Assembly (NCBI GenBank): GCA_030390025.1
Contig: CM059432.1
Coordinates: 50,098,001-50,162,000, forward strand
Length of the DNA: 64,000 nucleotides
Source: Squalus acanthias
Lineage: Eukaryota
Reading direction: 5' to 3'
Positions 1,700 through 54,214 of the stretch are shown one piece after another. The notes below the pieces were generated by a model, which was not told the origin of the DNA, searched no databases, and was given only the letters and a program-made list of their open reading frames with translations. Both the position numbers and the translations under genes were made by a program. The number at the start of each line of letters is the position of its first letter. Position 1 is the first letter of the stretch.

Positions 1700-2341
1700 A
1701 CAAAGCTTAACTGGACCAGCTAAATCAACATTGTTGCAATAAGAGCAGAGCAGAAGCTCAGAGGCTTATCTCCTGACCCCTCAAAGCCTCTCCACCATCA
1801 CGAGTGGGGAATGTGATAAAATACTCATCATTTGCCTGGATGGGTGCAGCCTCATCAACACACAAGAAGTTTGACACCATCTAGGACAGAGCAGTTCACG
1901 TGATTGGAGTCCCTACAATGATTCAATATCCACTGCACACCCCCCCCCCCCCCCACGCCCCACACTTCCCTCATCACTGGCACCCTATGGCCGCAGTATG
2001 TACAATCTACAGGATGCTTCGATGTTGCTTCAATGGCATTGGCCACCCCTGTGAACTTTACCAGCAAGAAGGCAAGAGTAGCCATATCATGGGAACCATT
2101 ATCCCCAAGTTCCCCTCCAAGTCACACCATCTTGATTTTGATATATATTGTCACTTTTTTCATCATTACTGGATCTATATCCTGGAATTCATTACCTAAT
2201 AGCATTGTGGGAGTGGCATCACCACAAGGACTGCAGCAGTTCAAGGAGAAGGCTTCAAACTATCTTCTCAGGGCAACAAGAGATGGACAATAATTATGAC
2301 CTTATCAGCATCGCCTACATCCTGAAAACAAATGAAAAAGA
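1700..2341 (+). mobile_element. Old 3' fragment of the tRNA-headed CR1-group LINE family
   Basis: Diverged match to 49760-50430 (MAAVCTIYRM; ccaagttcccctccaagtcac; 3' end catcgcctacatcc...aatgaaaaa). Confidence 0.8.
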
Positions 2342-4144: not shown

Positions 4145-7100
4145 GGGGTCGACATTAACCCTCCCACGACAGGCAGGAGAGGGTCGGGGCGGACGATTCA
4201 GAATTAAAAATCAGGGAACGCGTCCCCAACCCGCCGCATATGTGCCATTCGGCATTTTTACGTTGGTGGGTACCGTGGTGTGTGTGTGTGCCCCATCTTG
4301 GAGAGGCGGAAAACTTCAATATAGTATTTATATCAGGCTCCCACAGTGGAGTTGGGAGCCTGATTTAAATTGAACAGCTGCCAGCCGGGTTTCCCAGAGC
4401 TCGGGGAACCTGGCAGCGAAATGGAGACGGAAGCAGCAGGCTGCAGCAGGTAAGTGCTTTTTATAGCATTCCTTGTGGGTCTGGAGGAGCAGGAGAGCTC
4501 CCTCATCAAGGAAGCCTTCAGAGTCCCTTTTGCCCATTATGGCGTCTCCTCGCTGCCATGATTGGCTGACCACCCCATTCCAACCCCAATCTCCGGCCTG
4601 CCTGATCTTTCTCTCCCTCCCTCGCCATTACTGTTCTTTGATCGCACCCGCCTCCTGCCCCCACCTGACTTTGATCTTTCCAGCCTGTCAATCTGGCTGG
4701 CTGCCAGGTGGGAAACAGAAGAAGAAATTGATAATGAGGTCCTGTAACTGAACCGACTAGGGGGCAAGCAACCTTAGATCTGGTCCTGTGTAACGAGACA
4801 GGATTAATTAAAAATGTCCTAGTAAAGGATCCCCTTGGAATGAGTAACCATAACATGGTTGAATTCCATATTCAATTAGAGGGTGAGAAGGTTGGATCTC
4901 AAACAAGCGTGCTAAGCTTGAATAAAGGAGACTATGAAGGTATGCGAGCGGAATTGAGTAGAGTGGATTGGGAAAATAGATTATAAGTTAAGACGATACA
5001 TGATCAGTGGTGTACATTTAAGGAGTTATTTTACAACTTCCAAAAAAAATGTATTCCACTGAGAAGAAAAGGGTGTAAAAGAAAAGACAGTCATCCGTGG
5101 CTAAGTAAAGAAATTAAGGATAGTATTCAACTAAAAGCAAGGGCTTATAAGGTAGCCAAATCTAGTGGGAGGATAGAGGATTGGGAAAACTTTAAAAGAC
5201 AGCAAAAAATAACAAAAAGATTGATTAAGAAAGGGAAGATAGATTATGAAAGTAAATTAGCAAAAAATATAAAAACAGATAGGAAGAGTTTTTATAGTTA
5301 TATAAAAAGAAAAAGGGTGGCTAAAGTAAAGGTTGGTCCCTTAGAGGATGAGACCAGGAAATTAATGGTGGTAAATATGGAGATGGCAAATACACTGAAT
5401 GAATATTCTGTATCAGTCTTTACAGTAGAGGACACTAAGAATATCCCAACACTGGACAAACAGGGGGCTATAGGGGGGGAGGAGCTAAACACGATCAAAA
5501 TCACTAAGGAAGTGGTACTCGGTAAAATAATGGGACTCAAGGCGGATAAATCACCTGGACCTGATGGCTTACATCCTAGGGTCTTGAGGGAAGTGGCGGT
5601 AGGGATTGTGGATGCATTGGTAATAATTTTCCAAAACTCCCTGGACTCAGCAAAGGTCCCGGCAAACTGGAAAACTGCTAATGTAACACCCTTATTTAAA
5701 AAGGGCAGTAGACAGAAGGCTGGAAACTATAGACTGGTTAGCCTAACATCTGTGGTAGGTAAAATTTTGGAGTCCATTATTAAGGAGACAGTAACGGGAC
5801 ATTTGGATAATCATAATTTAATAGGACAAAGTCAGCATGGTTTTATGAAGGGGAAGTCATGTTTGACAAATTTGCTGGAGTTCGTTGAGGAAGTAGCATA
5901 CAGGGCGGATAAAGGGGAACCAGTGGATGTGGTGTATTTAGACTTCCAAAAGGCATTTGACAAGGTGCCACACAAGAGATTATTGCTTAAGATAAAAAAT
6001 CACGGGATTGGGGGTAATATTCTGGCATGGATAGAGGATTGGCTATCTAACAAAAGGCAGAGAGTTGGGATAAATGGTTCATTCTCAGACTGGCAATCAG
6101 TAACTAGTGGTGTTCCGCAGAGGTCAGTGCTGGGTTCCCAACTCTTTAAAATCTATATTAACGATTTGGAGGAGGGGACCGAATGTAACATATCAAAGTT
6201 TGCAGATGATACTAAGATGGGAGGGAAAGTAGTGAGTGAGGAGGACATAAAAAATCTGCAAGGGGACATAGACAGGCTAAGTAAGTGGGCAGAGATTTGG
6301 CAGATGGAATACAATACTGGAAAGTGTGAGGTTATGCACTTTGGCAGGAAAAATAGTAGAGCAAGTTATTATCTTAATGGCAAGAAACTGGAAAGTACTG
6401 AAGTACAAAGGGATCTGGGGGTCCTGGTGCACGAAACTCAAAAGGTTAGTATGCAGGTGCAGCAAGTGATTAAGAAGGCCAATGGAATGTTGGCTTTCAT
6501 TGCTAGGGGGACAGAATATAAAAATAGGGAGGTATTGCTTCAGTTGTACAAGGTATTGGTGAGACCGCACCTGGAATACTGCATACAGTTTTGGTGTCCA
6601 TACTTAAGAAAAGACATACTTGCTCTCGAGTCAGTACAAAGAAGGTTCACTCGGTTAATCCCGGGGATGAGGGGATGGACATATGAGGAGAGGTTGGGTA
6701 GATTGGGACTCTACTCATTGGAGTTCAGAAGAATGAGAGGCGATTTTATTGAAACATATAAGATTGTGAAGGGGTTGGATCGGGTGGATGCGGGGAGGAT
6801 GTTCCCGATGATGGGTGAAACTAGAACTAGGGGGCATAGTCTTAGAATAAGGGGCTGCTCTTTCAAAACTGAGATGAGAAGGAACTACTTCACTCAGAGG
6901 GTGGTAGGTCCATGGAATATGCTGCCCCAAAAAGCTGTAGAAGCTACATCATTACATAAATTTAAAACAGAAATAGACAGTTTCCTAGAAGTAAAGGGAA
7001 TTAAGGGTTACGGGGAGCGGGCAGGAATTTGGACATGAGTCTAGGTTCGGATCGGTCATGGCCCTGTGGGTAGCGTAGCGGGCCCAGGGGCCGTGTAGCC

Positions 7101-7380
7101 TGATCCTGCTCCTATTTCGTGTGTCCAATTCTGTTAGGTTCAGGAGATGTTTCTGTGATAGTAGATTGGCGGTTAGGATCAGATCAGCCATGATCTTATT
7201 GAATGGCGGAGCAGGCTCGAGGGGCCAATTGGCCTACTCCTGCTCCTATTTCTTATGTTCTTATGTTCTTATGTCCTGCCATTAAATTTGGCAGGAACTC
7301 CGCGTCCCAGGGATTTCCGGGTTTACTCCCACAACCGCACTCCCCCGCACCCTTCCAACCTCCCTGTAAATATTGGGGCC
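4145..7380. mobile_element. MITE (G-rich-repeat family) interrupted by a CR1 insertion
   Basis: 4145-4744 and 7273-7380 match the reverse complement of the two ends of 51085-52184; 3-bp TSD aac (4142-4144, 7381-7383). Confidence 0.75.
4745..7272 (+). mobile_element. 5'-truncated CR1 LINE, same subfamily as 33642-38099
   Basis: 605-aa RT ORF at 5221-7038 nearly identical to ORF2 of the full-length copy; (TTCTTATG)n tail; TSD gtcctg (4739-4744, 7273-7278). Confidence 0.96.
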
Positions 7381-8557: not shown

Positions 8558-8708
8558 TACAACAACAACTTGCAGTTATATAGCACCAATAATGTAGTAA
8601 AATGTCCCACGGTGCTTTACAGGAGCATTATCAAATAAAATTTGACACCAAGCTATATAAGGAGTTATTAGGAGAGATGAGGTAGCGTCTTAAGGAGGAA
8701 AGAGATGT
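8558..8708 (-). mobile_element. L2 LINE 3' fragment
   Basis: Matches 11248-11430, including the (TTG)n tail. Confidence 0.75.
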
Positions 8709-9157
8709 AAAGAAAGAAAGACTTGCATTTATATAGCGCCTTTCACAGCCACCAGACGTTCCAAAGCGCTTTACAACCAATTAAGTACTTTTTGAAGTGT
8801 AGTCACTGTTGTAATGTAGGAAATGCGGCAACCAATTTGTGCACAGCAAGCTCCCACAAACAGCGATGTGATAATGACCAGATAACCTGTTTTAGTGATG
8901 TTGATTGAGGGATAAATATTGGCCATGACTCCGGGGAGAACTCCCCTGCTCTTCTTCGAAATAGCACCATGAGATCTTTTACATCCATCTGAGAGAGCAG
9001 ACGGGGCCTCGGTTTAACGTCTCATCCGAAAGACGGCACCTCCAACAGTGCAGCACTCCCTCAGTACTGCACTGGAGTGTCAGCCTAGATTTTTGTGCTC
9101 AAGTCTCCTGGAGTGGGACTCAGAGGCAAGAGTGCTACCAACTGAGCCACAGCTGAC
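8709..9157 (-). mobile_element. tRNA-derived Deu-domain SINE (SacSINE1-like) with L2-type tail
   Basis: Minus strand: head gtcagctgtggctcagttggtagcac (A box; B-box region deleted), Deu-like core ggaggtgccgtctttcggatgagacgttaaaccgagg, tail ggcgctatataaatgcaagtctttcttt. Confidence 0.85.
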
Positions 9158-9783
9158 AATAAGAGGTAGCTATCAAAAACTGTGCATTTAAAGGGAAACT
9201 GCAGCTCCACTCCCATGGAATAATAATGGGATACAAATGCTCATAGCAAAGAAGTGTCCATGCCATTCATATGCCTTTAACATTGTCTTTTTTCCTTCCA
9301 AAGGAAAGCTGGCCCATAACCAGTGCCAGAGAAATGTGACTAGGAAGAACAACTATGACTGAAAGCCCTGACTCCACTCAGGAGGCACTGGATATAATTG
9401 GCAGGTAGACAGACAGAAGAGGCTAAAGGAGATGGTAAGATTGGAGGCAGGGTGGAACAGAAGGTTGGTAAAAGCTGGAATATGCTCATCACAGGTAGTG
9501 TCAGTTTTAGGTGCTTTCTCAAAAATGTGCAATGCCTTAACGCTTAGCTGACATTTCTTCAAGGAGGAATGTCACTGTGCACGCAGCTAAACAAGCTCTT
9601 CTGTGTTTCATATCTTGGGAGGGGGGGGGTGGGGTCCTTGCAGGAAAAGGTCAGATAATCCGATGACTACCCACCATTTCCAGATCGGAAACTTACTTCT
9701 GCCACTTCACCATCTATTCCATCATGGCATTTCGCTTACTCTCGCACCAGCCCAGAGACACCCAGTCAGGAAAAAGTAGTTCA

Positions 9784-10262
9784 GGGAAATGGTAGAATAG
9801 TGGTTATGTTACTGGACTAGTAAACCAGAGGCTGGGACTAATAATCTGAGAGACATGAGTTCAAATCCCACCATGGTAGTTGGAGAATTTAAATTCAGTT
9901 GATTAAATAAATCTGGAAAAATAAAAAGGTAGTATCGGTGATGGGTATTAGTATTGAAACTATTGGACTGTCATTTAAAAAAACACAACTGGTTCACTAA
10001 TGTCCTTCAGGGAAGGAAATCTGCTACCCTTACCCAGTCTGGCCTATATGTGACTACAGACCCACAGCAATGTGGTTGACTCTTAGCTGCCCTCTGAAAT
10101 GGTTTAGCAAGCCACTCAATTGTATCAAAACTGCTACAAAAAACTCTAATCCACATGGTTCAAGAAGGTGGCTCACCACCACCTTCTCAAGGTCATCTCG
10201 GGATGGGCAATAAATGCTGGTCTTGCCAGCAAAACCCACATCCCATGAATGAATAAAAAAAA
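9784..10262 (+). mobile_element. tRNA(Thr-like)-derived SINE sharing both ends with the LINE at 22408-26447
   Basis: A box tagaatagtgg, anticodon-like loop ctAGTaa, B box gagttcaaatcc; body matches the reverse complement of 25270-25535; last ~105 nt match the LINE 3' end. Confidence 0.88.
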
Positions 10263-11247
10263 GTTAGCGAGTCAGAAGGGTTTCCATGGGTGAAACACAG
10301 AACACTAGTGAGAATGTAGGAGCTGGGAGTGGGAGAGATGGAGAGTGACATTCCTCCACGGAGGTTTTAGAAACAACCACTCTCGGTTGAGGAACCTAGG
10401 GACCCAGATTTCTGGAGCCAGTTTTTCTAAAGAGCTATGATTAGGGAGCAATGGAGATAGTATCCATGCATATGGTCAAGATGACCAGCGGGAGCAGTCC
10501 ACTACCTACATCTCCAACTCATAGCAGAAAGTTTCCTATGACCTGAAGAACACTCTGGTGACAATGACAGTCTGGGAGATTTCTGCAGCATCAAGATGCC
10601 AGGAACAGCTTCTAAGAAGATTTGTGGCTTACTGAATGGCGGCTAACAGAGCTGCAATAGATGCTTTGAACAGGGCACTTTTATAGGGCTTCCAAGACCT
10701 GATTGGGACTATTTGGTCTGTGATGACACCAACCAATAGCTTTTCAAAGCTTGTGACCAGTGCCAGTGGACTGCAGAAGGACAGCAACCGTGGGGGAATA
10801 GGAGGAGATTGACCCCAGTGTGAATGCCACCTTCACAACATAAAACAAATGGAAGCAGTGCAGGAAAAAGATTAATCACCTTACTTGGTCAGCCAAGGTA
10901 CAACCCATTGTGACCTTATATTAATGCAATATACCAGCCATGTACAACACTTACAATTCCCTGCCTCTCATATAGGGGCCCAAAATCCTTGGCCGCTTAC
11001 CGCTGGCAGAGCTGCAGTGGAACAGGCTATGCACAATTAATTAAATGATACTAGCAGTGTCTCTAGTGACAGATTGAAATGACTAGACACATAAAGGTTG
11101 AGTGTGGAGATGACTTTTATTGCCACTGGCCTGTGGTAGAACACAGTTGCAGATCTGCTTGCTGCACGTGGTTTAACTCCATTATAGCTTCCCTGGTGAA
11201 TCAAAGCCTTTGCAAACACTGCTGTTCAGAGAAGTAGCATTATGTAC

Positions 11248-17430: not shown

Positions 17431-18221
17431 CTGTACAAATGGAATAAAACCAAACCTGTAGCTCAACATTTACATTTTTTTATTTATGCTGAAATACCAC
17501 ACGATTAATGAAGTTAATTAATTCATGTTTCACACTGCGCCTTCCTGTTATACACCATTTCAGTCAACCAATACATGTTCTTGGGAAACATAACTGGATA
17601 TTGTTAAACATGAGTTTGTCTACAAGATTATGGATTGGATGTTATCCCATTCACTATAAATAGAAGAAAAACAGGCCCCTGAATGACTCATTTAGTATGG
17701 TATTGAGCTGCACACATTTGGAAGGTCCCAGATCTGAAATCTTAATCTATACTAAGTTAGATGTCCTCAACTGGGCCATGGAAGGTGCCTCTATGTCACC
17801 GGACAGGGAAAACACACAGTAAGGGTTCCTGGTCCTGATTGCTATCCAATGATCTTTGCTGGAAAGTGCATTATATGCATGAATAAATTAATGAAATAAA
17901 TACATGTGCCTAGAAATTCATTTGCCCCCGAAAAAGGGGGCGGGGATCGCGATACGCTTGCAACCCATGCCTGTTTGGAGAACTGCAGGCAGAAAGCAAA
18001 CTTTGTGCTGCTTGCTCATTTCCATGATTGTGGCGGTCAGCCCAATGTTAAATGCGCTGCTGAGTGGCAGAACGCTCAGCAGGGGGCCCAAGTTCGTGTG
18101 AGGCTAGCACCAATTAAAGCTGCACTTCTGAAAGGCAGACTGCACCTCTTAAAGGTGAGGTGCATTCTGTCTGCAGCAGCTCATTCAACTGGCTGAGGAA
18201 AAGAGTGGAAAACAAACAATT

Positions 18222-19803
18222 AATGATAGTACAACAGGGCAGAGAGCGTGCAGCAAGGTTCTCCGATGCAGGACTGGAGGCCTCAGTGCAAAAGGTCAAA
18301 AGAAGGAGAGAGGTCCTCTTTCAACAGGGGGCCAGGAGGCCCTCCAGGCAACAGTGCAAAGTGCAGTGGGAGCAGATAGCCACTATGGTGAATGCCAGCA
18401 GTGTAGCTCTGAGGATGTGGATGCAGTGCAGGAAGATGTTTAATGACCTCACACGAGTGGTCAAGATCAGTGAATTCATCTTCAAATGCCATATCCCATC
18501 ATCTGCACCACTAGCTCAATGCACCACACCACCATCACTCACCTACCAACAATCTCTACCAAACACAACTCATACCTTACATTCATAGCTTCACCTCAGC
18601 CTAACACACTTACCACTGCTGCAAGCCTCACACCCACATCTTACAGCTTGCAAACACTGCTAGCTATTTACCCATGACAGGCACATCACCCAAACACATT
18701 GCACCACACTCACTAACACACTTCCCTTTCTCTTGCAGGAAAAGGTGGTGCATGAGACTGTCCCCCACCAGCAGAACCTAACCGGTGGGGAACAGGCTCA
18801 CCTGCATCACTTCATGCTCATGGAGGAGACGGTGCTGGCCATTCTTGGGAGAGGCATGGCTGAGCCCGTGGCCAGCGGCGGAGCTGGAAGAATACAAGAT
18901 GCCAGTATGTTAGCCTCCTTCCCACATCCCACATCCCCCTCATCCCATAATTCTTCTGATTTACAAGCGGCACATGGTGTAAGCAAGCACCTCTTGCTTC
19001 CCCCCCTCCCCTCACCACAACCCTACCCTTGAGTTTTTCTCATTTCAGAGACCCAAGAAATCCAACCTGCCCAGCCAATGGTTCAAGAAGAAGAGGGAGA
19101 GGAGAGTGATGAAGAAGAAGAAACACTGTCACTCGATCTGACACTCGCAGGCACCAGCTCAGATACTGGTACTGCGCACAGTTTAGAGGGTAGCTTAGAG
19201 GTGGTATTTGCACAGGGTGAGACACTGAGCACGAGTGGGCTGCAGCCAGAGCAGGGGGAAAGGGTAGCGCAGTTGCTAGCTCCCCGGAGGGCGAGGTCGC
19301 ACATGAGTTCTGCTGCAGAGGACTCAGATGAGGACTTCGATGAGATGGCCTACAGAAGAACGCTGATGGGTATGGACAGCAAAATGCTTGGTGCATTGGC
19401 AGGCCTGTCAGAAAGCCTGAGTGCAATGTCAAGGAGCATGGAGGAGTCCAGCAGCAACCTTGAACAGGGCTTTGCGAAGAGCTTGGAGCCCATCCTTTCC
19501 AGTATAGAAGGGGTGGGCAGATTTATTCGCGCACTTGTAGACCCAACCATCATGCAGCGTCTGATGGCTGATGTCTCAGCTCCCACTGCAGCACAAGCAC
19601 AAGCCACCCAATGTCTGAGTGCTGCAGTGGAAGCTCAGACTGCTGCCATCATGGCTGGGTTTACCAGTGTGAAAAAGGGCTTGCAGGGTGTCACGCATTC
19701 CAGCAATCTGTCCTCCAACAGATGGCTAGGAATGCTGAGGCACCACCCCGTGGGAGTGGCAGTGGCTCCGTGGAGCAAGAACCTGCGTCCTCTTTCAGGG
19801 TGA
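18222..19803 (+). pseudogene. Harbinger Myb/SANT-like DNA-binding protein gene, three exons (18222-18465, 18739-18904, 19049 to about 19800)
   Basis: RERAARFSDAGLE...WEQIA...QCRKMFNDL; acceptors ttgcag and tttcag; joined exons stay in frame; first donor reads AT instead of GT. Confidence 0.8.
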
Positions 19804-19859
19804 CAGCATTCGTCCTCCCACTACTGCCACTCTGCCAGTGCCCTTGCTGTTACCACCTT

Positions 19860-20900
19860 TCACTTCCTACTCCTCCTCTTTCTCCTCTTCCTCCTCCTCC
19901 TCTTCCTCCTTCTCCTCAGCTGGTCGCCGTATGCCTGGTGGCAAGATCTGGGCCCTCATGATGGCGAGGTTATGGAGCTTGCAGCAGACCACAAAGAAAT
20001 TGAGATGCATTCTGGTGAGTACTGCAGAGCTCCTTCAGAGCGGTCCAGGCCCGGAACCATTGCTTCAGCACCCCAATGGTCTGCTCTATCAGATTCCGTG
20101 TGGCAGCATGGCTCTCATTGTACGCATGCTGCCCACGTGTGGTTGGGTTGCGGAACAGAGTTATGAGCCAGGTGGTCAGTGGATAGCCCTTGTTGCCCAG
20201 TAGCCACCCTCTGGTTTGTCTTGGTGGCTCAAAGACTGAGGTAACAGCAGACTGCTGCTGAGTAAATGCATCATGACTGCTGCCAGGATATCGGGCATTC
20301 ACCAGCATGCTGTGCGGAACATGGTCGCACACGAACTGTACATTCAGTGAGTGGTAACCTTTGTGGTTGCGGTACATCTCAGCATTTAGATGTGGTTCCC
20401 GCAAAGCCACTTGTGTGCAGTTGATGGCGCCCTGCAACATGGGGAAGCCCACTATCCTGGCAAAGCCACATGCACACTCCGCCTGACAATGAAGTCCCAT
20501 CTCCTGGCTTAAAGAGTGTCTGTCACCTCTCTTATGCAGCAGTGGACGGCGAACTGTGAGATGTTACAGATGTCGTCTGCTCCAGCCTGGAAGGATCCCG
20601 ACGCGAAGAGATTCAGGGCCACGGTCACCTTCACAGCCACTGGCAGCACTATCCTTACCCTGGTGTGAGGCTACAGCTGTGGTTGCAAAAGGTAGTAGAG
20701 TTCTGTGAATGCCTCATACTGCTCCTCACTCAGGTTGAGCTAAGAGAATTGCTCTCGGAAGACCCTAGATGGGTAAGGCCTCCTACTGAGAGCCCTTCTC
20801 CCCCTTCTCCTTCTTCCTCTGCGAGCAGCTTGTCCTCTTCTTTGCTGCATCTGCTCCATCTCCTTGTCATGCTGCAGGCCAAGGGGATGACAACACCCAT
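19860..20900 (-). pseudogene. Harbinger transposase (DDE_Tnp_4, HARBI1-like), disrupted
   Basis: [90 protein letters not shown]; stops and frameshifts. Confidence 0.9.
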
Positions 20901-21890: not shown

Positions 21891-22407
21891 ATCTACCTGA
21901 ACAGAACATCTTAGATCATCTTGATACAGTAGTGCACAGTGGTTTGGCAAATGTGACTGAAGTGACCAGAGGAAGATGGGAACGACCCACTGCCGTACAG
22001 ATTCAGCGTTGTGCTCCTTGTTGAGCTGGGCTATGAATCTACGGGCAGTAGCTGGAATAACTGCCCAGTAGCCTCTGGGAAAGTGCAGCTTTCAACCACA
22101 ATGTGGAGAATTTTGGTTTGGGCACTGAACGGGTGCAATATTAATGATTAATGCAGCACCCGTCCAACAGGGCAATTGGGAGGCTCAAACCACCTTCAGG
22201 TTTGGGCCTCATTAACATTTTGGCAGCGAACTGCGGCCAAGATGGGAACTCTGCCGCAGTTCACCGGTTTCCTGCTATTATGCCGCAGGATTTCCAGGGC
22301 TTCTCCTAATGGATGGAACTTGATGAGCATCTATAATAACTATAGGCCCAGTGTTCAAATCTAAATTGTTATTTTGTGCTTTGCGGCATGGGGCGCCCAT
22401 GATGGAC

Positions 22408-25400
22408 TTTTTTTTAAATTCGTTCTTGGGATGTGGGCCTCGCTGGCATGGCCAGCATTTATTACCCATCCCTAAATGCCCTTGAGAAGGTGGTTGTGAG
22501 CCACCTTCTTGAAACGCTGCAGTCCTTGTGGTGAAGGTACTCCCATAATGCTGTTAGGGAGTGAGTTCCAGGATTTCGACCCAGTGACGATGAAGGATCG
22601 GCGATATATTTCCAAGTCAGGATTGTGTGTAACTTGGAGGGGAACTTACAGGTGATGGTGTTCCCATGTGCCTGCTGCCCTTGTCCTTCTAGGTGGTAGA
22701 GGCCGCGGGTTTGGGAGGTGCTGTCGAAGAAGCCTTGGCGAGTTGCACAGTGCATCTTGTAGATGGTACACACTGCAGCCATGGTACGCCGGTGGTGGAG
22801 GGAGTGAATGTTTAAGGTGGTGGGTGGGGTGCCGATCAAGTGGGCTGCTTTGACCGGGATGGTGTCAAGCTTCTTGAGTGTTGTTGGAGCTGCACTCATC
22901 CAGGTAAGTGGAGAGTATACCATCACACTCCTGACTTGTGCCTTGTAGATGGTGGAAAAGCTTTGGGGAGTCAGGAGGTGAGACACTCACTGCAGAATAC
23001 CCAGCCTCTGACCTGCTCTTGAAGCCACAGTATTTATTTGGCTGGTCCAGTTATGTTTCTGGTCAATGCTGACCCCCAAGATGTTGATGGTGGGGGATTC
23101 GGCAATGGTAATGTTGTTGAATGTCAAGGGGCAGTGGTTAGACTCTCTTTTGTTGGAGATAGTCATTGCCTGACACTTGTGTAGTGCGAATGTTTGTTGC
23201 CACTTATCAGCCCAAGCTTGAATGTTGTCCAGGTCTTGCTGCATGCAGGCATGGACTGCGTCATTATCTGGGGAGTTGCAATCATTAGTGAACATCCCCA
23301 CTTCAGACCTTATGATGGAGGGAAGGTCATTGAAGAAACAGCTGAAGATGGCTGAGCCTAGGACACTGCCCTGAGGATCTCCTGCAGCGATTACCTGGGG
23401 CTGAGTAGATTGACCTCCAACAACCACAACCATCTTCCTTTCTGCTTGTGACTTTAATTATACTAGGGCTCCTTGATGCTACACTCGGTCAAATGCTGCC
23501 TTGATGTCAAGGGCAGTCACTCTCACCTCACCTCTGGAATTCAGCTCTTATGTCCAAGTTTGGACCAAGGTTGTAATGAGGTCGGGAGCCGAGTGGTCCT
23601 GGCAGAACTCAAACTGAGCATCGGTGAGCAGGTTATTGGTGAGTAAGTGCCACTTGATAGCACTGTCGACGACACCTTCCATCACTTTGCTGATGATTGA
23701 GAGTAGACTGATGGGGTGGTAATTGGCCGGATTGGATTTGTCCTGATTTTAGTGGACAGGACATACCTGGGCAGTTTTCCACATTGTCGGGTAGATGCCA
23801 GTGTTGTAGCTGTACTGGAACAGCTTGGCTTGAGGCATGGCTAGTTCTGGAGTGCAAGTCTTCAGCACGACAGCCAGGATGTTGTCAGGGCCCATAGCCT
23901 TTGCTGTATCCAGTGCACTCAGCCGTTTCTTGATATCACATGGAGTGAATCGAATTGGCTGAAAACTGACTTCTGTGATGGTGGGGACGTCAGGAGGAGG
24001 CCAATATGGATCATCCACTCGGCACTTCTGGCTGGAGATGGTTGCAAAATCTTCAGCCTTGTCCTTTGCACTCACGTGCTGGGCTCCACCATCACTGAGG
24101 ATGGGGATATTCATGGAGCCTCCTCCTCCTGTTAGTTGTTTAATGGTCCACCACCATTCACGACTGGATGTGGCAGGACTGCAGAGCTTTGATCTGATCA
24201 GTTGATTGTGGGATTGCTCAACTCTGTCTATAGCATGCTGCTTTCACTGTTTAGCATGCATATAGTCCTGTGTTGCAGCTTTACCAGGTTGGCACCTCAT
24301 TTTTAGGTACGCCTAGTGCTGCTCCTGGCATGCTCTTCTGCACTCATTGAACCAGTTCTGGTCCCCTGGCTTGATGGTAATGGTAGAGTAAGTGATATGC
24401 CAGGCGATGAGGTTGCAGATTGTGGTGGAGTACAATCCTGCTGCTGCTGATGGCTCACAGCGCCTCATGGATGCCCAATTTTGAGCTGCTAGATCTGTTC
24501 TGAATCTATTCCATTTAGCATGGTGGCAGTGCCACACAATACAATGGAGGGTGTCCTCAGTGTGAAGATGGTTCTTTGTCTCCACAAGGACTGTGCGGTG
24601 GTCACTGCTACCAATGCTGTCATGGACAGATGCATCTGCGATAGTTAGATTGGTGAGGACGAGGTCAAGTAGGTTTTTCACTCGTGTTGGTTCTCTCACC
24701 ACCTGCCGCAGGCCCAATCTGGCAGCTATGTCCTTCAGGACTCGGCCAGCTCGGTCAGTAGTGCTGCTACCGAGCCACTCTTGGTGATGGACATTGAAGT
24801 CCCCTGACCCAGAGTACATTCTGTGCCCATGCTATCCTCAGTGCTTCTTCCAAGTGGTGTTCTTCTATGAAAGTGTACTGATTCATCAGCTGAGGGAGAG
24901 CAGTAGGTGATAATTAGCAGGAGGTTTCCTTGCTCATGCTTGACCTGAAGCCATGAGACTTCATGGGGCCACTCCCTCCCAACTGTATATCACTGTGCTG
25001 CCACCCCTGGTGGGTCTGTCCTGCCAGTGGGACAGGACATACCCAGGGATGGTGATGGAGGAGTCTGGGACATTGGCTGAAAGGTATGATTCTGTGAGTA
25101 TGACTATGTCAGGCTGTAGCTTGACTAGTCTGTGGGACAGCTCTCCCAATTTTGATACAAGTTCCCAGATGTTAGTGTGGAGGACTTTGCAGGGTCGACT
25201 GGGCTGGGTGTGCTGGTGTCGTGTCTGAAGTCGGTGTGGGGTGGTCCGTCCGATTTTATTCTTATTATTTCTTTCTGTAATGGTTTGTTACAAATGAGTG
25301 GCTTGCTAGGCTATTTCAGCGGGCAGTTAAGAGTTAACCACATTGCTGTGGGTCTGGAGTCACGTATAGGCCAGATCGGGTAAGGACGGCAGATTTCCTT

Positions 25401-26447
25401 CCCTAAAGGTCATTAGTGAACCAGATGGGTTTTTATGACCCCATTACTGATACTAGCTTTTTATTCCAGATTTATTTAATTAACTGAATTTAAACTCCCC
25501 AGCTGCCATGATGGAATTTGAACTCACGTCTCTGGCTCAGTGAATGGGCGAGAACATGGCAGATGGAATATAATGTGGATAAATGTGAAGTTATCCACTT
25601 TGGTAGAAAAAACAGAAAGGCAGAGTATTTCCTAAATGGTGAAAGATTGGGGAACGCAGATGCTCAAAGGGACCTGGATGTCCTTGTACATGAGTCACTG
25701 AAAGTGAATGTGCAGGTGCAGCAAGCCATTAGGAAGGCAAATGGTATGCTGGCCTTCATTACAAGAGGATTTGAGTACAGGAGTAAAGAAGTCTTACTCC
25801 AATTATATAGGGCCTTGGTGAGACCACACCTGGAGTACTATGTACAATTTTGGTCTCCTTACCTAAGGAAGGATATACTTGCCATAGAGGGAGTGCAACG
25901 AAGGTTCACGAGATTGATTCCTGGGATGGCGGGACTGTCGTATGAGAAGAGATTGAGTAAACTAGGCCTGTATTCTCTTGAATTCAGCAGAATGAGAGGG
26001 GATCTCATTGAAGCATACAAAATGATTACAGGGCTTGATAGGATGGATGCTGGGAGAATGTTTCCCTTGGCTGGGGAGTCTAGAACCAGGAGCCACAGCC
26101 TCAGGATAAAGGGTAGGCCATTCAGGACTGAGATGAGAAGATATTTCTTCACACAGAGGGTGATGAATCTTTGGAATTCTCTACCCCAGAGGGCTGTGGA
26201 GGCTCAGTTATTGGGTATATTCAAAACAGAAGTCGATAGATTTCTGACTAGTAAAGGCATCAAGGGATATGGCGATAGGGCCGGTGAATGGAGTTGAGGC
26301 AGAAGATCAGCCATGATCTCATTGAATGGCGGAGCAGGCTCGAAGGGCTGAATGGCCTACTCCTGCTCCTATTTCTTATGTTCTTATGTTCTTATCTAGG
26401 CCTCTGGATTACTAGTTCAGTAACATAAACACTATGCTACCATTCCC
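22408..26447 (-). mobile_element. CR1-group LINE with tRNA-derived 5' head, decayed EN-RT frame and no ORF1; head interrupted by a CR1
   Basis: Head at 26396-26447 and 25270-25535; EN motifs QPDIVILTES, GDFNVHH, LDLVLT, SSDH; RT motifs KAMGPDNI, PQGSVLG, WADKWQ, YKAQVRS; 3' end gccagcga...cccacatccc plus A-rich tail. Confidence 0.88.
25536..26395 (+). mobile_element. 5'-truncated CR1 inserted into the tRNA head
   Basis: ORF 25518-26297 (WQMEYNVDKC, RPHLEYYVQFW, RMRGDLIE); (TTCTTATG)n tail. Confidence 0.95.
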
Positions 26448-33078: not shown

Positions 33079-33880
33079 CTCTTCAACAGTATGTAGTGTC
33101 TGGCAATTTCTACTTCTAGCATTGCCAGTCGGTGTACTCTTCTGTCGGGACGCCTTTGCAAGATGCCCGGTTTTCTTGCAGTAGAAACACTCTGCCTTCA
33201 CATATGAACAGCTTTGAGCGATGTGTTGTCAGAGGCACCGATAGTACAACTTCAATGCATTGTTACCTTGGCCAGTTGCTGAGGCTTTGGGGCCCAACTG
33301 CCTTTTACTTTTAGCCTGAAACTGATTCACCTCGGTTGTCTGACGACTGGAAATGGCACGGAACTCACAGCAGTATCGGTCGGTCATATCCATCGACATA
33401 GCTGTCTGACAAGCTAAGTCACAAGTCAAATTACAGGTTGTCAATAATTTATTTCTGATACGTTCATTTTTCAACCCACAAACAAAGCGGTCATGCAAAG
33501 CTCGGTCCTGAATGTTTCCGAAATGACAGTGAATGGATAGCTTTTTTAAAGCTACAATGTACTCACTGATACCCTCGTCAGTTAATTGATCATGTGTTCC
33601 AAAATGATCACTTTCAGCAATTTCGAGGGTTCAGGACTGTACATAAGAACATAAGAACATAAGAAATAGGAGCAGGAGTAGGCCAATCGGCCCCTCGAGC
33701 CTGCTCCGCCATTCAATAAGATCATGGCTGATCTGATCCTAACCGCCAATCTACTATCTATCACAGAACCATCTCCTGCATCTAACAGAATTGCACACAC
33801 GAAATAGGAGCAGAATCAGGCTACACAGTCCCTGGGCCCGCTCCACTACCCACAGGGCCATGACCGATCCGAACCTAGAC

Positions 33881-36832
33881 TCATGTCCAAATTCCTGCCC
33901 GCTCCCCGTAACCCTTAATGCCCTTTACTTCTAGGAAACTGTCTATTTCTGTTTTAAATTTAATTAATGTTGTAGCTTCTACAGCTTTTTGTGGCAGCAT
34001 ATTCCATGGACCTACCACCCTCTGAGTGAAGTAGTTCCTCCTCATCTCAGTTTTGAAAGAGCAGCCCCTTATTCTAAGACTATGTCCCCTAGTTCTCGTC
34101 TCACCCGTCATCGGGAACATCCTCCCCGCATCCACCCGATCCAACCCCTTCACAATCTTATATGTTTCAATAAGATCGCCTCTCATTCTTCTGAACTCCA
34201 ATGAGTAGAGTCCCAATCTACCCAACCTCTCCTCATATGACCACCCCCTCATCCCCGGGATTAACCGAGTGAACCTTTTTTGCACTGCCTCGAGAGCAAG
34301 GATGTCTTTCCTTAAGTAAGGACACCAAAACTGTATGCAGTATTCCAGGTGCGGTCTCACCAATACCTTGTACAACTGAAGCAATACCTCCCTATTTTTA
34401 TATTCTATCCCCCTAGCAATGAAAGCCAACATTCCATTTGCCTTCTTAATCACTTGCTGCACCTGCATACTAACCTTTTGAGTTTCGTGCACCAGGACCC
34501 CCAGATCCCTTTGCACTTCAGTACTCTCCAGTTTCTTGCCATTAAGATAATAAATTGCTCTAGGATTTTTCCTGCCAAAGTGCATCACCTCACACTTTCC
34601 AGTGTTGTATTCCATCTGCCAAATCTCTGCCCACTTACTTAGCCTGTCTATGTCCCCTTGCAGGTTTTTTATGTCCTCCTCACTCACTACTTTCCCTCCC
34701 ATCTTTGTATCATCTGCAAATTTTGATATGTTACACTTGGTCCCTTCCTCCAAATCGTTAATATAGATTGTGAAGAGTTGGGGACCCAGCACTGACCCCT
34801 GTGGAACACCACTAGTTACTGATTGCCAGTCTGAGAATGAACCATTTATCCCAACTCTTTGCTTTCTGTTAGATAGCCAATCCTCTATCCATGCCAGAAT
34901 ATTACCCCCAATCCCGTGATTTTTTACCTTAAGCAATAATCTTTTGTGTGGCACCTTGTCAAATGCCTTTTGGAAGTCTAAATACACTACGTCCACTGGT
35001 TCCCCTTTATCCACTCTATATGTTACTTCCTCAAAGAACTCCAGCAAATTTGTCAAACATGACTTCCCCTTCGTAAAACCATGCTGACTTTGTCCTATTA
35101 AATTATGATTATCCAAATGTCCTGTTACTGTTTCCTTAATAATGGACTCCAAAATTTTACCTACCACAGATGTTAGGCTAACCGGTCTATAGTTACCAGC
35201 CTTCTGTCTACTGCCCTTTTTAAATAAGGGTGTTACATTAGCAGTTTTCCAGTCTGCCGGGACCTTAGCGGAATCCAGGGAGTTTTGAAAAATTATTACC
35301 AATGCATCTACAATCCCTACCGCCACTTCCTTCAAGACTCTAGGATGTAAGCCATCAGGTCCAGGTGATTTATCCGCCTTGAGTCCCATTATTTTACCGA
35401 GTACCACTTCCTTAGTGATTTTGATCGTGTTTAGCTCCTCTCCCCCTATAGCCCCCTGTTTGTCCAGTGTTGGGATATTCTTAGTGTCCTCTACTGTAAA
35501 GACTGATACAAAATATTCATTCAGTGTTTTTGCCATCTCCATATTTCCCACCATTAATTTCCCGGTCTCATCCTCTAAGGGACCAACATTTACTTTAGCC
35601 ACCCTTTTTCTTTTTATATAACTATAAAAACTCTTACTATCTGTTTTTATATTTTTTGCTAATTTACTTTCATAATCTATCTTCCCTTTCTTAATCAATC
35701 TTTTTGTTATTTTTTGCTGCCTTTTAAAGTTTTCCCAATCCTCTGTCCTCCCACTAGATTTCGCTACCTTATATGCCCTTGTTTTTAGTCGAATACTATC
35801 CTTAATTTCTTTACTTAGCCACGGATGACTGTCCTTTCTTTTACACCCTTTTCTTTTCAGTGGAATATATTTTTTTTGGAAGTTGTAAAATAACTCCTTG
35901 AATGTACACCACTGATCATGTGTCGTCTTACCCTTTAATCTATTTTCCCAATCCACTCTACTCAATTCCGCTCGCATACCTTCATAGTCTCCTTTATTCA
36001 AGCTTAGCACGCTTGTTTGAGATCCAACCTTCTCACCCTCTAATTGAATATGGAATTCAACCATGTTATGGTCACTCATTCCAAGGGGATCCTTTACTAG
36101 GACATTTTTAATTAATCCTGTCTCGTTACACAGGACCAGATCTAAGGTTGCTTGCCCCCTGGTCGGTTCAGTTACATACTGCTCAAGAAACCCATCCCTA
36201 ATACACTCAATGAACTCATCCTCAAGGCAGCCCTGCCCCATTTGATTTGTCCAATTAATATGATAGTTAAAATCCCCCATAATTATAGATGTTCCCTTAT
36301 TACATGCCTCAACTATTTCCTGATTGATACTCCGTCCAATAGAGTTGCAACTGTTCGGAGGCCTATAGACTACGCCCACTAATGTTTTTTTCCCCTTATT
36401 ATTCCTTATCTCCACCCAAACTGTTTCATTATCATGATTTTTTGACCCAATATCATTACTCTGTATTACAGTGATTCCTTCCTTTATTAACATAGCCACC
36501 CCACCTCCCCTTCCTTCCTGCCTGTCCTTCCTGATCGTTAAATAACCTGGTATGTTTAATTCCCAGGCATTGTCACCCTGCAGCCATGTTTCTGTAATGG
36601 CCACAATATCATAACCATATGTAGTTATTTGTGCCATTAACTCGTCTATTTTGTTACGAATGCTACGTGCATTCAGATAGAGAACTTTCAAATATGCTTT
36701 GTGGCACTTAGTTCCTGCTTTTTCACTTTTTACCAGTTTACCTTTTACTCCACACACTCTGTCCCTTCCTGCCACGCTCTGATTTGTGATTCCCCTACTG
36801 CTACCTATGTCTATGACCCTCTCTGTTGTCAT
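33881..36832 (-). CDS. CR1 ORF2: AP endonuclease and reverse transcriptase (983 aa)
   Basis: YLNARS, ITETW, GDFN, LDLV, SDH; QHGF, YLDFQKAFD, GVPQGSVLGP, FADD. Confidence 0.97.
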   Translation of the reverse strand: MTTERVIDIGSSRGITNQSVAGRDRVCGVKGKLVKSEKAGTKCHKAYLKVLYLNARSIRNKIDELMAQITTYGYDIVAITETWLQGDNAWELNIPGYLTIRKDRQEGRGGGVAMLIKEGITVIQSNDIGSKNHDNETVWVEIRNNKGKKTLVGVVYRPPNSCNSIGRSINQEIVEACNKGTSIIMGDFNYHINWTNQMGQGCLEDEFIECIRDGFLEQYVTEPTRGQATLDLVLCNETGLIKNVLVKDPLGMSDHNMVEFHIQLEGEKVGSQTSVLSLNKGDYEGMRAELSRVDWENRLKGKTTHDQWCTFKELFYNFQKKYIPLKRKGCKRKDSHPWLSKEIKDSIRLKTRAYKVAKSSGRTEDWENFKRQQKITKRLIKKGKIDYESKLAKNIKTDSKSFYSYIKRKRVAKVNVGPLEDETGKLMVGNMEMAKTLNEYFVSVFTVEDTKNIPTLDKQGAIGGEELNTIKITKEVVLGKIMGLKADKSPGPDGLHPRVLKEVAVGIVDALVIIFQNSLDSAKVPADWKTANVTPLFKKGSRQKAGNYRPVSLTSVVGKILESIIKETVTGHLDNHNLIGQSQHGFTKGKSCLTNLLEFFEEVTYRVDKGEPVDVVYLDFQKAFDKVPHKRLLLKVKNHGIGGNILAWIEDWLSNRKQRVGINGSFSDWQSVTSGVPQGSVLGPQLFTIYINDLEEGTKCNISKFADDTKMGGKVVSEEDIKNLQGDIDRLSKWAEIWQMEYNTGKCEVMHFGRKNPRAIYYLNGKKLESTEVQRDLGVLVHETQKVSMQVQQVIKKANGMLAFIARGIEYKNREVLLQLYKVLVRPHLEYCIQFWCPYLRKDILALEAVQKRFTRLIPGMRGWSYEERLGRLGLYSLEFRRMRGDLIETYKIVKGLDRVDAGRMFPMTGETRTRGHSLRIRGCSFKTEMRRNYFTQRVVGPWNMLPQKAVEATTLIKFKTEIDSFLEVKGIKGYGERAGIWT

Positions 36833-36870
36833 TTTTATTTTTTGCTCTCTTGAAACCTCCCCCCCACTAA

Positions 36871-37827
36871 TTAGTTTAAAGCCCTCTCCACAGCCCTAGT
36901 TATTCGATTCGCCAGGACACTAGTCCCAGCACTGGCCAAGTGAAGTCCGTCCCAACGGAACAGCTCTCTCCTGCCCCAGTACTGGTGCCAGTGTCCCAAG
37001 AAGCAAAACCCATTTTTCCCACACCAGTCTTTGAGCCACGCATTCAACTCCCTGATTTTATTTACCCTAGCCAAATTTGCTCGTGGCTCAGGTAGTAATC
37101 CAGAGATTATTACCCTCGAGGTTCTGCTTTTTAATTTGGCCCCTAGCTGCTCAAACTCCCTCAGCAGAACCTCTTTCCTTGTCCTATCTATGTCATTGGT
37201 ACCAACATGGACCACGACAACTGGATCCTCCCCCTCCCACTCCAAGTTTCTCTCCAGCCCAGAGGAGATGTCCTTAACCCTGGCACCGGGCAGGCAACAC
37301 AGCCTTCGGGACTCTCGCTCTTGGCTGCAAAGAACCCTATCTATCCCCCTAATGATACTATCCCCTACCACTACAACATTTCTTTTTACTCCCCCCACTT
37401 GAATGGCCCCCCTTACCACGGTGCTGTGGCCAGGTTGCTCATCCTCCCTGCAGTCCCCGCTCCTATCCACACAGGGAGTAAGAGCCTCGAACCTGTTGGA
37501 CAAGAGCAAGGGCTGCGGCTCCTCCAACACTACCTCCTGGATCCCTGTACCTGCCTCACTCGTAGTCACACCTTCCTGTCCCTGACCACGGGCTACTTCT
37601 GAATTAGTTACTCTAATTGGTGTGACTACCTCCTGAAACACGGAGTCCAGGTAACTCTCCCCCTCCCTGATGTGTCGCAGTGTTTGAAGCTCGGACTCCA
37701 GCTCATCAACACGGAGCCGGAGTTCCTCGAGCAGCCAACACTTACTGCAAATGTGTTCACCGTGAACATCAATGGTGTCCACCAGCTCCCACATATTGCA
37801 GCAGTAACACATCACCTGCTCTCCCAT
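36871..37827 (-). CDS. CR1 ORF1: zinc finger, coiled coil and SGNH/GDSL esterase (318 aa)
   Basis: CYCC...CSKC, leucine-heptad segment, VVVGDS, LPGA, HVGTND, DGLHL. Confidence 0.95.
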   Translation of the reverse strand: MGEQVMCYCCNMWELVDTIDVHGEHICSKCWLLEELRLRVDELESELQTLRHIREGESYLDSVFQEVVTPIRVTNSEVARGQGQEGVTTSEAGTGIQEVVLEEPQPLLLSNRFEALTPCVDRSGDCREDEQPGHSTVVRGAIQVGGVKRNVVVVGDSIIRGIDRVLCSQERESRRLCCLPGARVKDISSGLERNLEWEGEDPVVVVHVGTNDIDRTRKEVLLREFEQLGAKLKSRTSRVIISGLLPEPRANLARVNKIRELNAWLKDWCGKNGFCFLGHWHQYWGRRELFRWDGLHLASAGTSVLANRITRAVERALN

Positions 37828-37959
37828 TCTATGTAATTAATTAAAAATGTATTATTTACCCTTCAGTTAATTTATGCCAGCAGTCTCTGCTACACCACAG
37901 ATACCCGAGAAACAATAAAATTGAAGTTTTGTATAAAAAAAAAGAGAAATACTCACCAA

Positions 37960-38693: not shown

Positions 38694-39249
38694 ATCGGGC
38701 CGGAGCATCGGGTGAGGGGGCAAGGGAGAGAAATGTCCACCAAGTAAAACTTTAAGGGGATATGTTTTGCACACACACACTCTCTCATGAGGAAGTCTTT
38801 GGCTGATGAGTACTTTCTGATATTGGTGAGCAGCACTATATATAAATGTGTATACATAAAAAATATCAAAGGTGACAGTCAAGGACAAAAGAGATCAATC
38901 GAATCATGTTCCCACCGTGCACAGTCTATTTCCTCCAAGCCTAGGTCCCAAACACAGCAATGACTAAGAAACTCCCAATGGCTTTGCAACTGCACAATTG
39001 TTGAGATGGCGGCCTTGGATGCACAATTTTTTTTTAAATTCCGAAACAAAAAGATATCTGCAGCTTGTTTGCTCTAAATAAAGGGATAGCCGATAGGAAC
39101 AGGCCGATCCCTTTTAGCAACAGCTGACATAAGACATCATTTTGATCGCTGTGTATTACTTACGTGGCTGCAATCTGAATAATGTCAGCAGCACTCACAC
39201 TTACTACATTCAATGTAATCGCTGACTGTGGTCCACTTCACCTCACAGA

Positions 39250-48132: not shown

Positions 48133-48219
48133 GTTTTTTTTTTATTCATTCATGAGATGTGGGCATCGCTGGCAAGATCAGCATTTATTGCCCATCCCTA
48201 GTTGCCCTTGAGAAGGTGA
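48133..48219 (-). mobile_element. 3' end of the tRNA-headed LINE/SINE family
   Basis: Reverse complement matches 10180-10262. Confidence 0.8.
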
Positions 48220-49249: not shown

Positions 49250-50631
49250 CCCATTGACATCAGGCAGCATCTGACCGAGTGTGGCATCAAGGAGCCCTTG
49301 TAAAACTGAAGTCAATGGGAATCTGGGGAAAACTCTCCACTGGCTGGAGTCATACCTGAGCACAAAGAAGATGGTTGTGCTGGTTGAAGGTCAATCATCA
49401 CAGCCCCAGGACATCACTGCAGGAGTTCCTCAGGGCAGTGTCCTAGGCCCAACCATCTTCAGCTGCTTCATCACTGACCTTCCCTCTAACATAAGGTCAG
49501 AAATGGAGATGTTCGCTGATGACTGCACAGTGTTCAGTGCCATTCACAACTCCTCAGATAATGAAGCAGTCGATGCCCGCACGCAACAACACCTGGACGA
49601 CGTTCAGGCTTGGGCTGATAAGTGGCAGGTAACATTCGCGCCACAGAAGTGCCAGGCAATGACTTTCTCCAACAAGCGAGAGTCTAACCACCGCCCCTTG
49701 ACATTCAACTGCTTACCATCGCCGAATCCCCACCATCAACATCCTGGGGGTCACCATGACCAGCCACATAAATACTGTGGCAACAAGAGCAGGTCAGGGG
49801 CTAGGTATTCTGTGGCGAGTGTCTCACCTCCTGACTCTCCAAAGCCTTTCCACCATCTACAAGGCACAATTACATTTCCCACCTGGCAGCCAACCAAATT
49901 GACAAGTAAGGAGTGTGATGGAATACTCTCCACTTGCCTGGATGAGTGCAGCTCCAACAACGCTCAAGAAGCTCGACACCATCCAGGACAAAGCAGCCCA
50001 CTTGATTGGCATCCCATCCACCACCTTAAACATTCACTCCCTCCACCACTGGCGTATCGTGGCTGCAGTGTGTACCATCTACAAGATGCACTGCAGCAAC
50101 TCACCAAGGCTTCTTCGGCAGCACCTCCCAAACCCACGACCTCTTCCACCTAGAAGGACAAGGGCAGCAGGCACATGGGAACACCACCACCTCCAAGTTC
50201 CCCTCCAAGTCACACACCATCCTGACTTGGAAATATATTGCCGATCCTTCATCGTCACTGGATCAAAATCCTGGAACTCCCTCCCTAACAGCACTGTGGG
50301 AGTAACTTCACCACAAGGACTGCAGTGGTTCAAGAAGGCGGCTCACCACCACCTTCTCAAGGGCAATTAGGGATGGGCAATAAATACTGGTCTTGCCAGC
50401 GACGCCCACATCCCAGGAACTAATTTTTAAAAAGTCCATCATGGGCGCCCTATGCCGCAAAGCACAAAATAACAATTTAGATTTGAACACTGGGCCTATA
50501 GTTATTATAGATGCCCATTAGGGGAAGCCCTGGAAATCCTGGGGCATACTAGCAGGAAACCGGTGAGCTGCGGCAATAAATGCTGACCTTGCCAGCGACG
50601 CCCACATCCCACAAAAATGAATTTAAAAAAA
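49250..50631 (+). mobile_element. 5'-truncated copy of the tRNA-headed LINE family with a 3' extension and a second 3' end
   Basis: GVPQGSVLGP, MFADD, WADKWQ; 3' end near 50433, extension 50434-50575, repeated 3' end 50572-50631. Confidence 0.9.
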
Positions 50632-54168: not shown

Positions 54169-54214
54169 CTTATGTTCAACTAATGCTCAGATCCCCAAAA
54201 TACGATGTTCGCAA

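What the first reader, a model, noticed from the sequence alone, without database searches (positions are those of the whole stretch)
9784..10262. SINE that looks like an internal deletion of the tRNA-headed LINE
Seen: the first ~355 nt are co-linear with the 5' end of the LINE at 22408-26447 (head and body up to gcaagccactca..tgta..aaa), then the sequence jumps to the LINE's last ~105 nt. Known: SINEs normally share only the 3' tail with the partner LINE, and shared 5' parts are described mainly for RTE and Vingi clades. Here even the tRNA head is shared.
Basis: partly seen in the sequence, partly recalled or inferred. Interest (0 to 1): 0.75.

Follow-up and report, generated by a model that had tools for sequence, protein, structure and literature searches.

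The report
SINE cut from a tRNA-headed LINE
A 480-base repeat in a shark-type genome matches both ends of a 3.2-kb protein-coding jumping gene, tRNA-like head included, so it is likely that gene with its coding middle deleted, which would be a one-step way to make a SINE.

Summary
Observation confirmed. The element at 9784-10264 matches the long element at 22406-26447 (minus strand) in head (90%), body (88%), the next 24 nt (74%) and tail (87%), and skips about 2760 nt coding for endonuclease and reverse transcriptase.

The body-to-ORF junction is not unique to this locus. It recurs in whale-shark gene models and an ENA contig. A second short form with a different breakpoint exists, read from two proteins. 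The SINE also keeps about 40 nt that align with the 5' UTR of head-less relatives of the LINE. The LINE's coding strand is short of T runs (7 vs 13, P=0.009).

It is not SacSINE1 or a Deu SINE: a true Deu SINE at 8708-9158 was the control.

Best reading (0.6): an internal-deletion derivative of a multi-copy, single-ORF LINE that had gained a tRNA head. Untested: whether this breakpoint is a subfamily, which element came first, and Pol III transcription. This scan noted the headed LINE before, on other DNA of this genome (at least 10 unchecked notes). Ten paper searches found no description.

The parts
9784..9878 (+). tRNA-like head; A box 9793-9803 (one mismatch), B box 9859-9867 (exact); about 26 extra nt in the variable region
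   Evidence: Rfam tRNA model 15.1 bits, below gathering 29; ARAGORN none; the only A+B box pair at tRNA-like spacing in the window (box consensus recalled)
9879..10100 (+). body of unknown origin, shared with the long element; not Deu
   Evidence: Deu motif absent here, present in the control SINE
10101..10149 (+). end of body plus linker, likely the LINE's own 5' UTR sequence
   Evidence: matches 25307-25272; the LINE counterpart aligns with the same position in head-less relatives L002 and L001; same reading in P0086 and P0016
10150..10155 (+). 6-nt filler at the deletion join
   Evidence: sequence
10156..10264 (+). LINE 3' tail with two predicted hairpins and an A run
   Evidence: 87% to both LINE copies; folding z = -3.9
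26400..26447 (-). head of the long element, 5' part with A box
   Evidence: 43 of 48 to the SINE head
25534..26399 (+). nested 5'-truncated CR1 fragment of another family; separates A and B boxes by about 870 nt
   Evidence: 70-76% to other CR1 copies in the window; microsatellite tail
25272..25533 (-). B-box region, body and linker of the long element
22514..25271 (-). single decayed endonuclease-RT reading frame and start of 3' UTR; no room for ORF1; the part missing from the SINE
   Evidence: Pfam Exo_endo_phos_2 E=1.8e-9, RVT_1 E=3.1e-20 on the read-through P0001
22406..22513 (-). 3' tail of the long element
   Evidence: z = -4.1
49251..50435 (+). second, 5'-truncated copy of the same LINE
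   Evidence: 878 of 978 identical to the first copy
8708..9158 (-). a true SacSINE1-type Deu SINE, unrelated to the finding; used as positive control
   Evidence: Deu motif exact at 9018-9040; head matches the SacSINE1 head printed by eye; no significant whole-element or body alignment to the finding's SINE

Best explanation
The element at 9784-10264 matches both ends of a multi-copy, single-ORF LINE and is likely a non-autonomous derivative of it, made by losing about 2.76 kb of the middle. Shown: colinearity with both ends at equal divergence; recurrence of the body-to-ORF junction outside this locus; shortage of T runs on the LINE's coding strand. Inferred step 1: an ancestral single-ORF LINE gained a tRNA-derived head and about 220 nt of body in front of the last part of its own 5' UTR, since its nearest fetched relatives have no such head. 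Inferred step 2: the headed form replicated as a unit, probably transcribed from the A and B boxes by RNA polymerase III. Inferred step 3: internal deletion, probably by a template jump during reverse transcription, joined the 5' UTR to the 3' tail. The product keeps the promoter and the hairpin tail that LINE protein would bind, so it would be a working SINE at once. At least two different breakpoints appear to exist.
For: Head 43/48, body 211/239, tail 84/97; head+body vs tail P=0.59, and SINE-to-LINE vs LINE-to-LINE divergence P=0.38. Of 150 listed proteins, 6 carry body-derived sequence; 4 run on into the LINE 5' region or endonuclease (P0086, P0016 contiguous; P0020, P0015 with a skip) and 2 run into a shorter tail (P0024, P0116). 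P0015, P0016 and P0020 are whale-shark gene models. The window SINE keeps LINE-type bases on both sides beyond that shorter form's breakpoint. The 140 nt before the endonuclease start align with the same stretch of L002 (0 of 1000 in both nulls) and weakly L001 (P=0.07, 0.015); further upstream there is no similarity (P=0.25-0.8). L001, L002 and P0168 are the nearest relatives (36-39% aa; RT tree 96/94); no tRNA or body match in the loci. Runs of three or more T in the ORF: 7 vs 13.1 in synonymous shuffles, P=0.009; A, C and G runs normal; two CR1s, one L2 and L001 not depleted; 2.9 vs 10.3 per kb against L001, P=0.001. All 30 bins are covered in 4 of 4 runs from four organisms.
Against: Only one copy of this SINE form was seen, so a subfamily is not shown. 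The head on a long copy was seen only here; none of the outside proteins reaches it, and P0016 covers only the last 30 nt of the body. The protein query was biased to endonuclease-bearing hits, and gene models may splice. The same colinearity follows if a headed SINE came first. Runs of four T, the usual terminator, are not significantly depleted in this copy (3 vs 4.9, P=0.25; 3 vs 2.3), although 2 of the 3 look copy-specific. The three-T test was chosen after the four-T test failed. The anchored UTR test was designed after seeing an alignment; unanchored tests were negative or marginal. The tRNA score is below Rfam's cut-off. No start codon for the ORF was found in this copy. No target site duplication was found for the long element, and the SINE's is doubtful.
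Confidence: 0.6

Rival explanations
1. SINE first. A bipartite LINE remnant (5' UTR piece plus tail) gained a tRNA head and body, as in the Bov-tA model, and became this SINE. The SINE's 5' part later crossed onto the full LINE once, through the shared 5' UTR piece. The SINE is then the donor of the head, not a deletion product.
For: It predicts the same anatomy, including the LINE-native segment ending the body. It follows the order proposed in PMC5786205. Head-less relatives show the head was added at some point. The shorter form (P0024, P0116) could be a deletion of this one.
Against: SINE and LINE are as close in head/body as two LINE copies are in the ORF, which needs a recent transfer or steady exchange. 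The body matches no conserved SINE domain I could test, so nothing shows it is older than the LINE.
Confidence: 0.25
2. Headed long copies are repeated chimeric retrocopies, like U6-L1: reverse transcriptase finishing a LINE RNA jumps onto an abundant SINE RNA at the shared segment. The master LINE is head-less and Pol II-driven.
For: Such chimeras are known (passages of PMC4494074). A shared segment at the junction would favour the jump. No outside sequence showed the head on a long copy.
Against: T-run shortage along the ORF implies selection on the coding strand of the master. No alternative 5' UTR turned up among shark-type hits, though most do not reach that far.
Confidence: 0.1
3. Locus accident: a SINE inserted next to, or into, a 5'-truncated LINE here, and only the tail is truly shared.
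For: The window is dense with nested repeats.
Against: The long element lacks the SINE's tail after the body, and the junction recurs in whale-shark gene models and an ENA contig.
Confidence: 0.03

Closest known systems
Bipartite LINE derivatives and SINEs built on them (Bov-B/Bov-A/Bov-tA, RTE-derived SINEs, SINE2-1_ACar/Vingi-2_ACar; PMC5786205, PMC4494074, PMC7245038)
   Same: Short element holds a 5' UTR piece and the 3' end of its partner LINE behind a tRNA head.
   Different: In those cases the head sits on the SINE only. Here it sits on the long coding element too. PMC5786205 lists only RTE, Ingi, Vingi and R2 as sources; this LINE's RT motifs look CR1/L2-group by recall, clade not formally assigned.
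RTE-1_DAn and relatives (one sentence in PMC5786205)
   Same: A LINE carrying a tRNA-like sequence that hits SINE2 elements.
   Different: RTE clade; position and role of the tRNA-like part are not given in the text I read, and no derived SINE is described there.
SacSINE1 / LmeSINE1 Deu SINEs with L2-2_CM or CR1-4_DR-like tail (PMC5499810, PMC3747384)
   Same: Shark tRNA SINE of similar length (463 bp, PMC2746220) with a LINE tail.
   Different: Different head, no Deu motif, different tail; a true SacSINE1-type copy lies at 8708-9158 and does not align significantly.
HE1 V-SINE with HER1 LINE (table in PMC3747384; original papers not read)
   Same: Shark tRNA SINE sharing a tail with a LINE.
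   Different: No V-type motif found (weak test); tail unrelated to the window's CR1 tail. HE1's own sequence could not be compared.
U6-L1 type chimeric retrocopies (passages of PMC4494074)
   Same: Small-RNA sequence fused 5' of LINE sequence by template switching.
   Different: Those are one-off products; here the fusion point recurs across genomes and sits at the LINE's 5' end.
LP-SINEs of molluscs (passages of PMC4758252)
   Same: Exchange of 5' modules between LINE and SINE.
   Different: Opposite direction: a LINE 5' UTR replaces the SINE's tRNA head.

Membership tests
tRNA-derived SINE (SINE2) | tRNA-like head with A and B boxes | tested here: met
   A box one mismatch, B box exact, only such pair in the window; Rfam tRNA 15.1 bits, below gathering
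tRNA-derived SINE (SINE2) | 3' tail shared with a partner LINE | tested here: met
   87% over about 100 nt, two hairpins
tRNA-derived SINE (SINE2) | target site duplication | tested here: inconclusive
   an imperfect A-rich repeat flanks it but stops 4 nt short of the 5' end (by eye)
tRNA-derived SINE (SINE2) | this exact form is multi-copy | tested here: inconclusive
   one copy in the window; no genome held; no protein with this join among 150
tRNA-derived SINE (SINE2) | transcribed by RNA polymerase III | not testable with these tools
   no T4 inside the element, first one 100 nt downstream; no transcript data
SacSINE1 / Deu SINE | Deu (Nin) domain | tested here: not met
   23-nt motif hits 9018-9040 and 51685-51707 only; bodies do not align, P=0.64
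SacSINE1 / Deu SINE | SacSINE1 head and tail | tested here: not met
   printed head fits 9158-9090, not 9784; head and tail local scores near background, P about 0.05 each; the motif found nothing because the control copy has a deletion there
V-SINE (HE1) | V domain | tested here: inconclusive
   bivalve V primer motif absent from the whole window, so no positive control
CORE-SINE | CORE domain | tested here: inconclusive
   motif absent from the whole window, no positive control
MetaSINE | Meta domain after the head | tested here: inconclusive
   motif absent from the whole window, no positive control
Bipartite LINE derivative (Bov-A/Bov-tA type) | 5' and 3' parts of one LINE joined | tested here: met
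Bipartite LINE derivative (Bov-A/Bov-tA type) | head present on the SINE but absent from the partner LINE | tested here: not met
   head at 26447-26400 on the long element
Bipartite LINE derivative (Bov-A/Bov-tA type) | partner in RTE, Ingi, Vingi or R2 clade | not tested
   tree had no named references; it only sets the LINE apart from the window's CR1 copies
Autonomous LINE (long element) | endonuclease plus reverse transcriptase | tested here: met
   Pfam
Autonomous LINE (long element) | intact headed copies able to make protein | not testable with these tools
   this copy has stops, frame shifts and a split promoter; no genome held

The most novel reading that the evidence does not exclude
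[quoted passage not shown] LINE and SINE are then two lengths of one element.
Probability: 0.35. Interest if true: 0.85.

Novelty: new variant of a known kind. Interest (0 to 1): 0.62.

Why it matters
The origin of SINE bodies is an open question, and the standard model needs two steps: deletion, then gain of a head. A headed LINE gives a one-step route that can be tested by counting breakpoints in any shark assembly. LINEs are described as Pol II transcripts, and Pol III is thought too weakly processive for long elements (passages of PMC10886601). A Pol III-made coding retrotransposon would raise the question of how an uncapped RNA is translated. In practice, repeat libraries may be splitting one element into a SINE and a LINE.

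Tried and rejected
SacSINE1/Deu identity was my own first guess from recall; it was rejected. No genome is held, so copies could not be counted. The junction motif had 0 matches in metagenome, viral and prokaryote collections, which is uninformative for a vertebrate repeat. No RNA holder was listed. Laying contigs printed no piece bridging the junction and no joint of either SINE form; only 15 of 9030 joints and 32 of 913334 pieces were shown and depth is no copy number, so I count it only as showing a high-copy family in four organisms. Searches with P0086 found only itself or nothing. Related loci in viral contigs: none. Unanchored profile searches between the relatives' UTRs and the window found nothing significant; the P0168 N-terminus ranked 29th of 6384 at the right place, not significant. 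The four-T test was not significant. No target site duplication for the long element within 700 nt downstream. A motif search of full texts gave 3 unrelated papers. Sequence look-ups in earlier findings were blank. The supplement of PMC5499810 (SacSINE1-CM and L2-2_CM alignments) could not be read, and the 2006 Deu-SINE paper and a 2019 review are not held; these and Repbase/Dfam entries may already hold this family.

Full report
Observation. The element at 9784-10264 aligns with the long element on the minus strand in four blocks. Over aligned columns the identities are 43 of 48 in the head, 211 of 239 in the body, 17 of 23 in the next segment and 84 of 97 in the tail. The part skipped is 2758 nt. 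The match just after the body motif is not chance: it beat 5000 of 5000 random stretches and all but 14 of 5000 shuffles. The host looks like a shark, inferred from whale-shark gene models at 57-72% identity.

Anatomy. The head fits the Rfam tRNA model weakly (15.1 bits, cut-off 29) and ARAGORN finds nothing. It holds the only A and B box pair at tRNA-like spacing in the window (consensus recalled). The tail folds into two hairpins (z = -3.9 and -4.1; the 50 kb copy only -1.2). The long element has one decayed endonuclease-RT frame and no room for ORF1, whereas a CR1 in the same window has an esterase ORF1. In an RT tree of 15 rows it groups with L001 and P0168 (96/94), apart from the window's CR1 copies. 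No named references were in the tree, so the clade is not assigned.

Is the junction unique? No. A search with the first 190 codons returned 231 proteins, 150 listed. Six of the 150 carry body-derived sequence. P0086 reads through about 120 nt of body, the linker and the LINE 5' region. P0016 reads from the last 30 nt of the body into the endonuclease. P0020 and P0015 join body to endonuclease with a skip that may be a predicted intron. P0015, P0016 and P0020 are whale-shark gene models and P0086 is from an ENA contig. None reaches the tRNA head. The query favoured such hits, so these are not proportions. The stretch 24900-25533 was held, wholly or partly, by 20 of 24 listed runs. Four runs from four organisms covered all 30 bins, with summed depths of 2e5 to 1.4e7 in the 29 bins that overlap the element and 12 to 74 in the flank bin. 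That shows a high-copy family; no printed piece bridged the junction.

Is the SINE a deletion product? Three points favour it. First, head+body and tail are equally close to the LINE (P=0.59), and SINE-to-LINE divergence matches that between two LINE copies (P=0.38). Second, P0024 and P0116 show a different short form, where the body runs straight into the last 70-80 nt of the tail (my reading of their residues against the tail frames). The window SINE keeps extra LINE-type bases on both sides of that breakpoint. Third, the linker seems to be LINE-native. Of 21 related loci fetched, L001 and L002 are the closest with a 5' end. They share a 5' UTR with each other and show no tRNA or body match. 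Anchored on the endonuclease start, the upstream 140 nt align with L002 better than 1000 of 1000 controls in both nulls, and with L001 at P=0.07 and 0.015; the 70-140 nt part alone gives P=0.006 to 0.027; beyond 140 nt nothing. This test was designed after I saw the alignment, and unanchored tests were negative or marginal, so it is moderate evidence. None of this fixes the order of events: a headed bipartite SINE that later donated its 5' part to the LINE gives the same anatomy.

Pol III. Runs of four T are not significantly rare in this copy (3 vs 4.9; 3 vs 2.3). One of the three is absent from the second copy and another falls on a residue that differs in two shark proteins. After earlier notes raised the point again, I tested runs of three or more: 7 against 13.1 in synonymous shuffles (P=0.009), with A, C and G runs normal, 3 against 5.8 in the second copy (P=0.09), and no shortage in two CR1s, one L2 or L001. 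The rate is 2.9 per kb against 10.3 in L001 (P=0.001). This fits a Pol III template but does not prove it. How the ORF would be translated is unexplained: four outside proteins show an AUG near the end of the linker that appears to be out of frame with the endonuclease, and it is mutated here.

What it is not. I first took it for SacSINE1 by recall. The supplement of PMC5786205 prints the SacSINE1 head and a Deu domain. A Deu motif from there hits 9018-9040 and 51685-51707, not this element. The SINE at 8708-9158 has the SacSINE1 head and does not align significantly with the finding (P=0.14 whole, 0.64 bodies). V, CORE and Meta motifs were absent from the whole window, so those tests lack a control. 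With Deu excluded, the great age of Deu SINEs gives no argument that this SINE is older than the LINE.

Literature. Read: PMC5786205 parts 1-4 of 5 and supplement passages; PMC5499810 parts 1-4 of 6; PMC7245038 parts 1-2 of 4 and a supplement search; PMC4824008 passages, a supplement search and supplement part 1 of 4; passages only of PMC3747384, PMC10468316, PMC2746220, PMC4758252, PMC10886601, PMC5804259, PMC1845163 and PMC4494074. Bipartite SINEs are known from RTE and Vingi, with the head added to the short form. [quoted passage not shown] Ten searches listed no paper on a tRNA-headed LINE with a colinear SINE. Subscription papers, Repbase and Dfam were not searchable.

Earlier notes. At least ten notes from this scan describe the same headed LINE on other DNA of this genome. 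They are unchecked and I do not count them as support. Several name Deu SINEs or HE1 as closest; my test excludes Deu.

Verdict. A real feature and a new variant of a known kind. Deletion from a headed LINE 0.6, SINE first 0.25, repeated chimeras 0.1, local accident 0.03. Interest 0.62; 0.85 if Pol III transcription of the coding element holds (probability 0.35).

Noticed in passing
window 50436-50637 vs 22405-22252: The second LINE copy is followed by 140 nt of the first copy's 3' flank (135 of 140 identical, against 878 of 978 in the LINE body; P=0.008), then by a second 60-nt tail joined at a 4-nt microhomology. The flank is low-copy in four runs. Possibly a repair template switch between the inverted copies, or a 3' transduction.
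   Followed up: partly
window 8708-9158 (-), 51375-51714 (+), 44023-44134: SacSINE1-type Deu SINE copies; the first has a deletion through its B-box region.
   Followed up: partly
window 18118-20563: Myb/SANT ORF (+) and DDE_Tnp_4 transposase ORF (-) facing each other, Harbinger-type by recall.
   Followed up: partly
window 33641-37836 (-): Near-intact CR1 with a 1004-codon open ORF2 and an esterase ORF1; 96% identical to the copy at 4743-7274, so a young family.
   Followed up: no
L001 450-3552 and L002 368-600: Single-ORF relatives (939 aa in L001) with a shared 200-290 nt 5' UTR, no ORF1 and no Rfam match; their promoter type is unknown.
   Followed up: partly
window 25270-25160 (-); P0016, P0018, P0030, P0086: A short upstream frame beginning near the end of the linker overlaps the endonuclease start in another frame; translation start of the ORF is unexplained.
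   Followed up: no
window 1708-2339 (+), 48136-48242 (-): A more distant copy of the same LINE (66%) and a tail-only fragment.
   Followed up: no
window 39247-39902: G-rich tandem array with a unit of roughly 40 nt.
   Followed up: no
window 54184-54678 (+): RT fragment of another LINE type, beside a 74-nt tandem duplication at 54665-54806.
   Followed up: no
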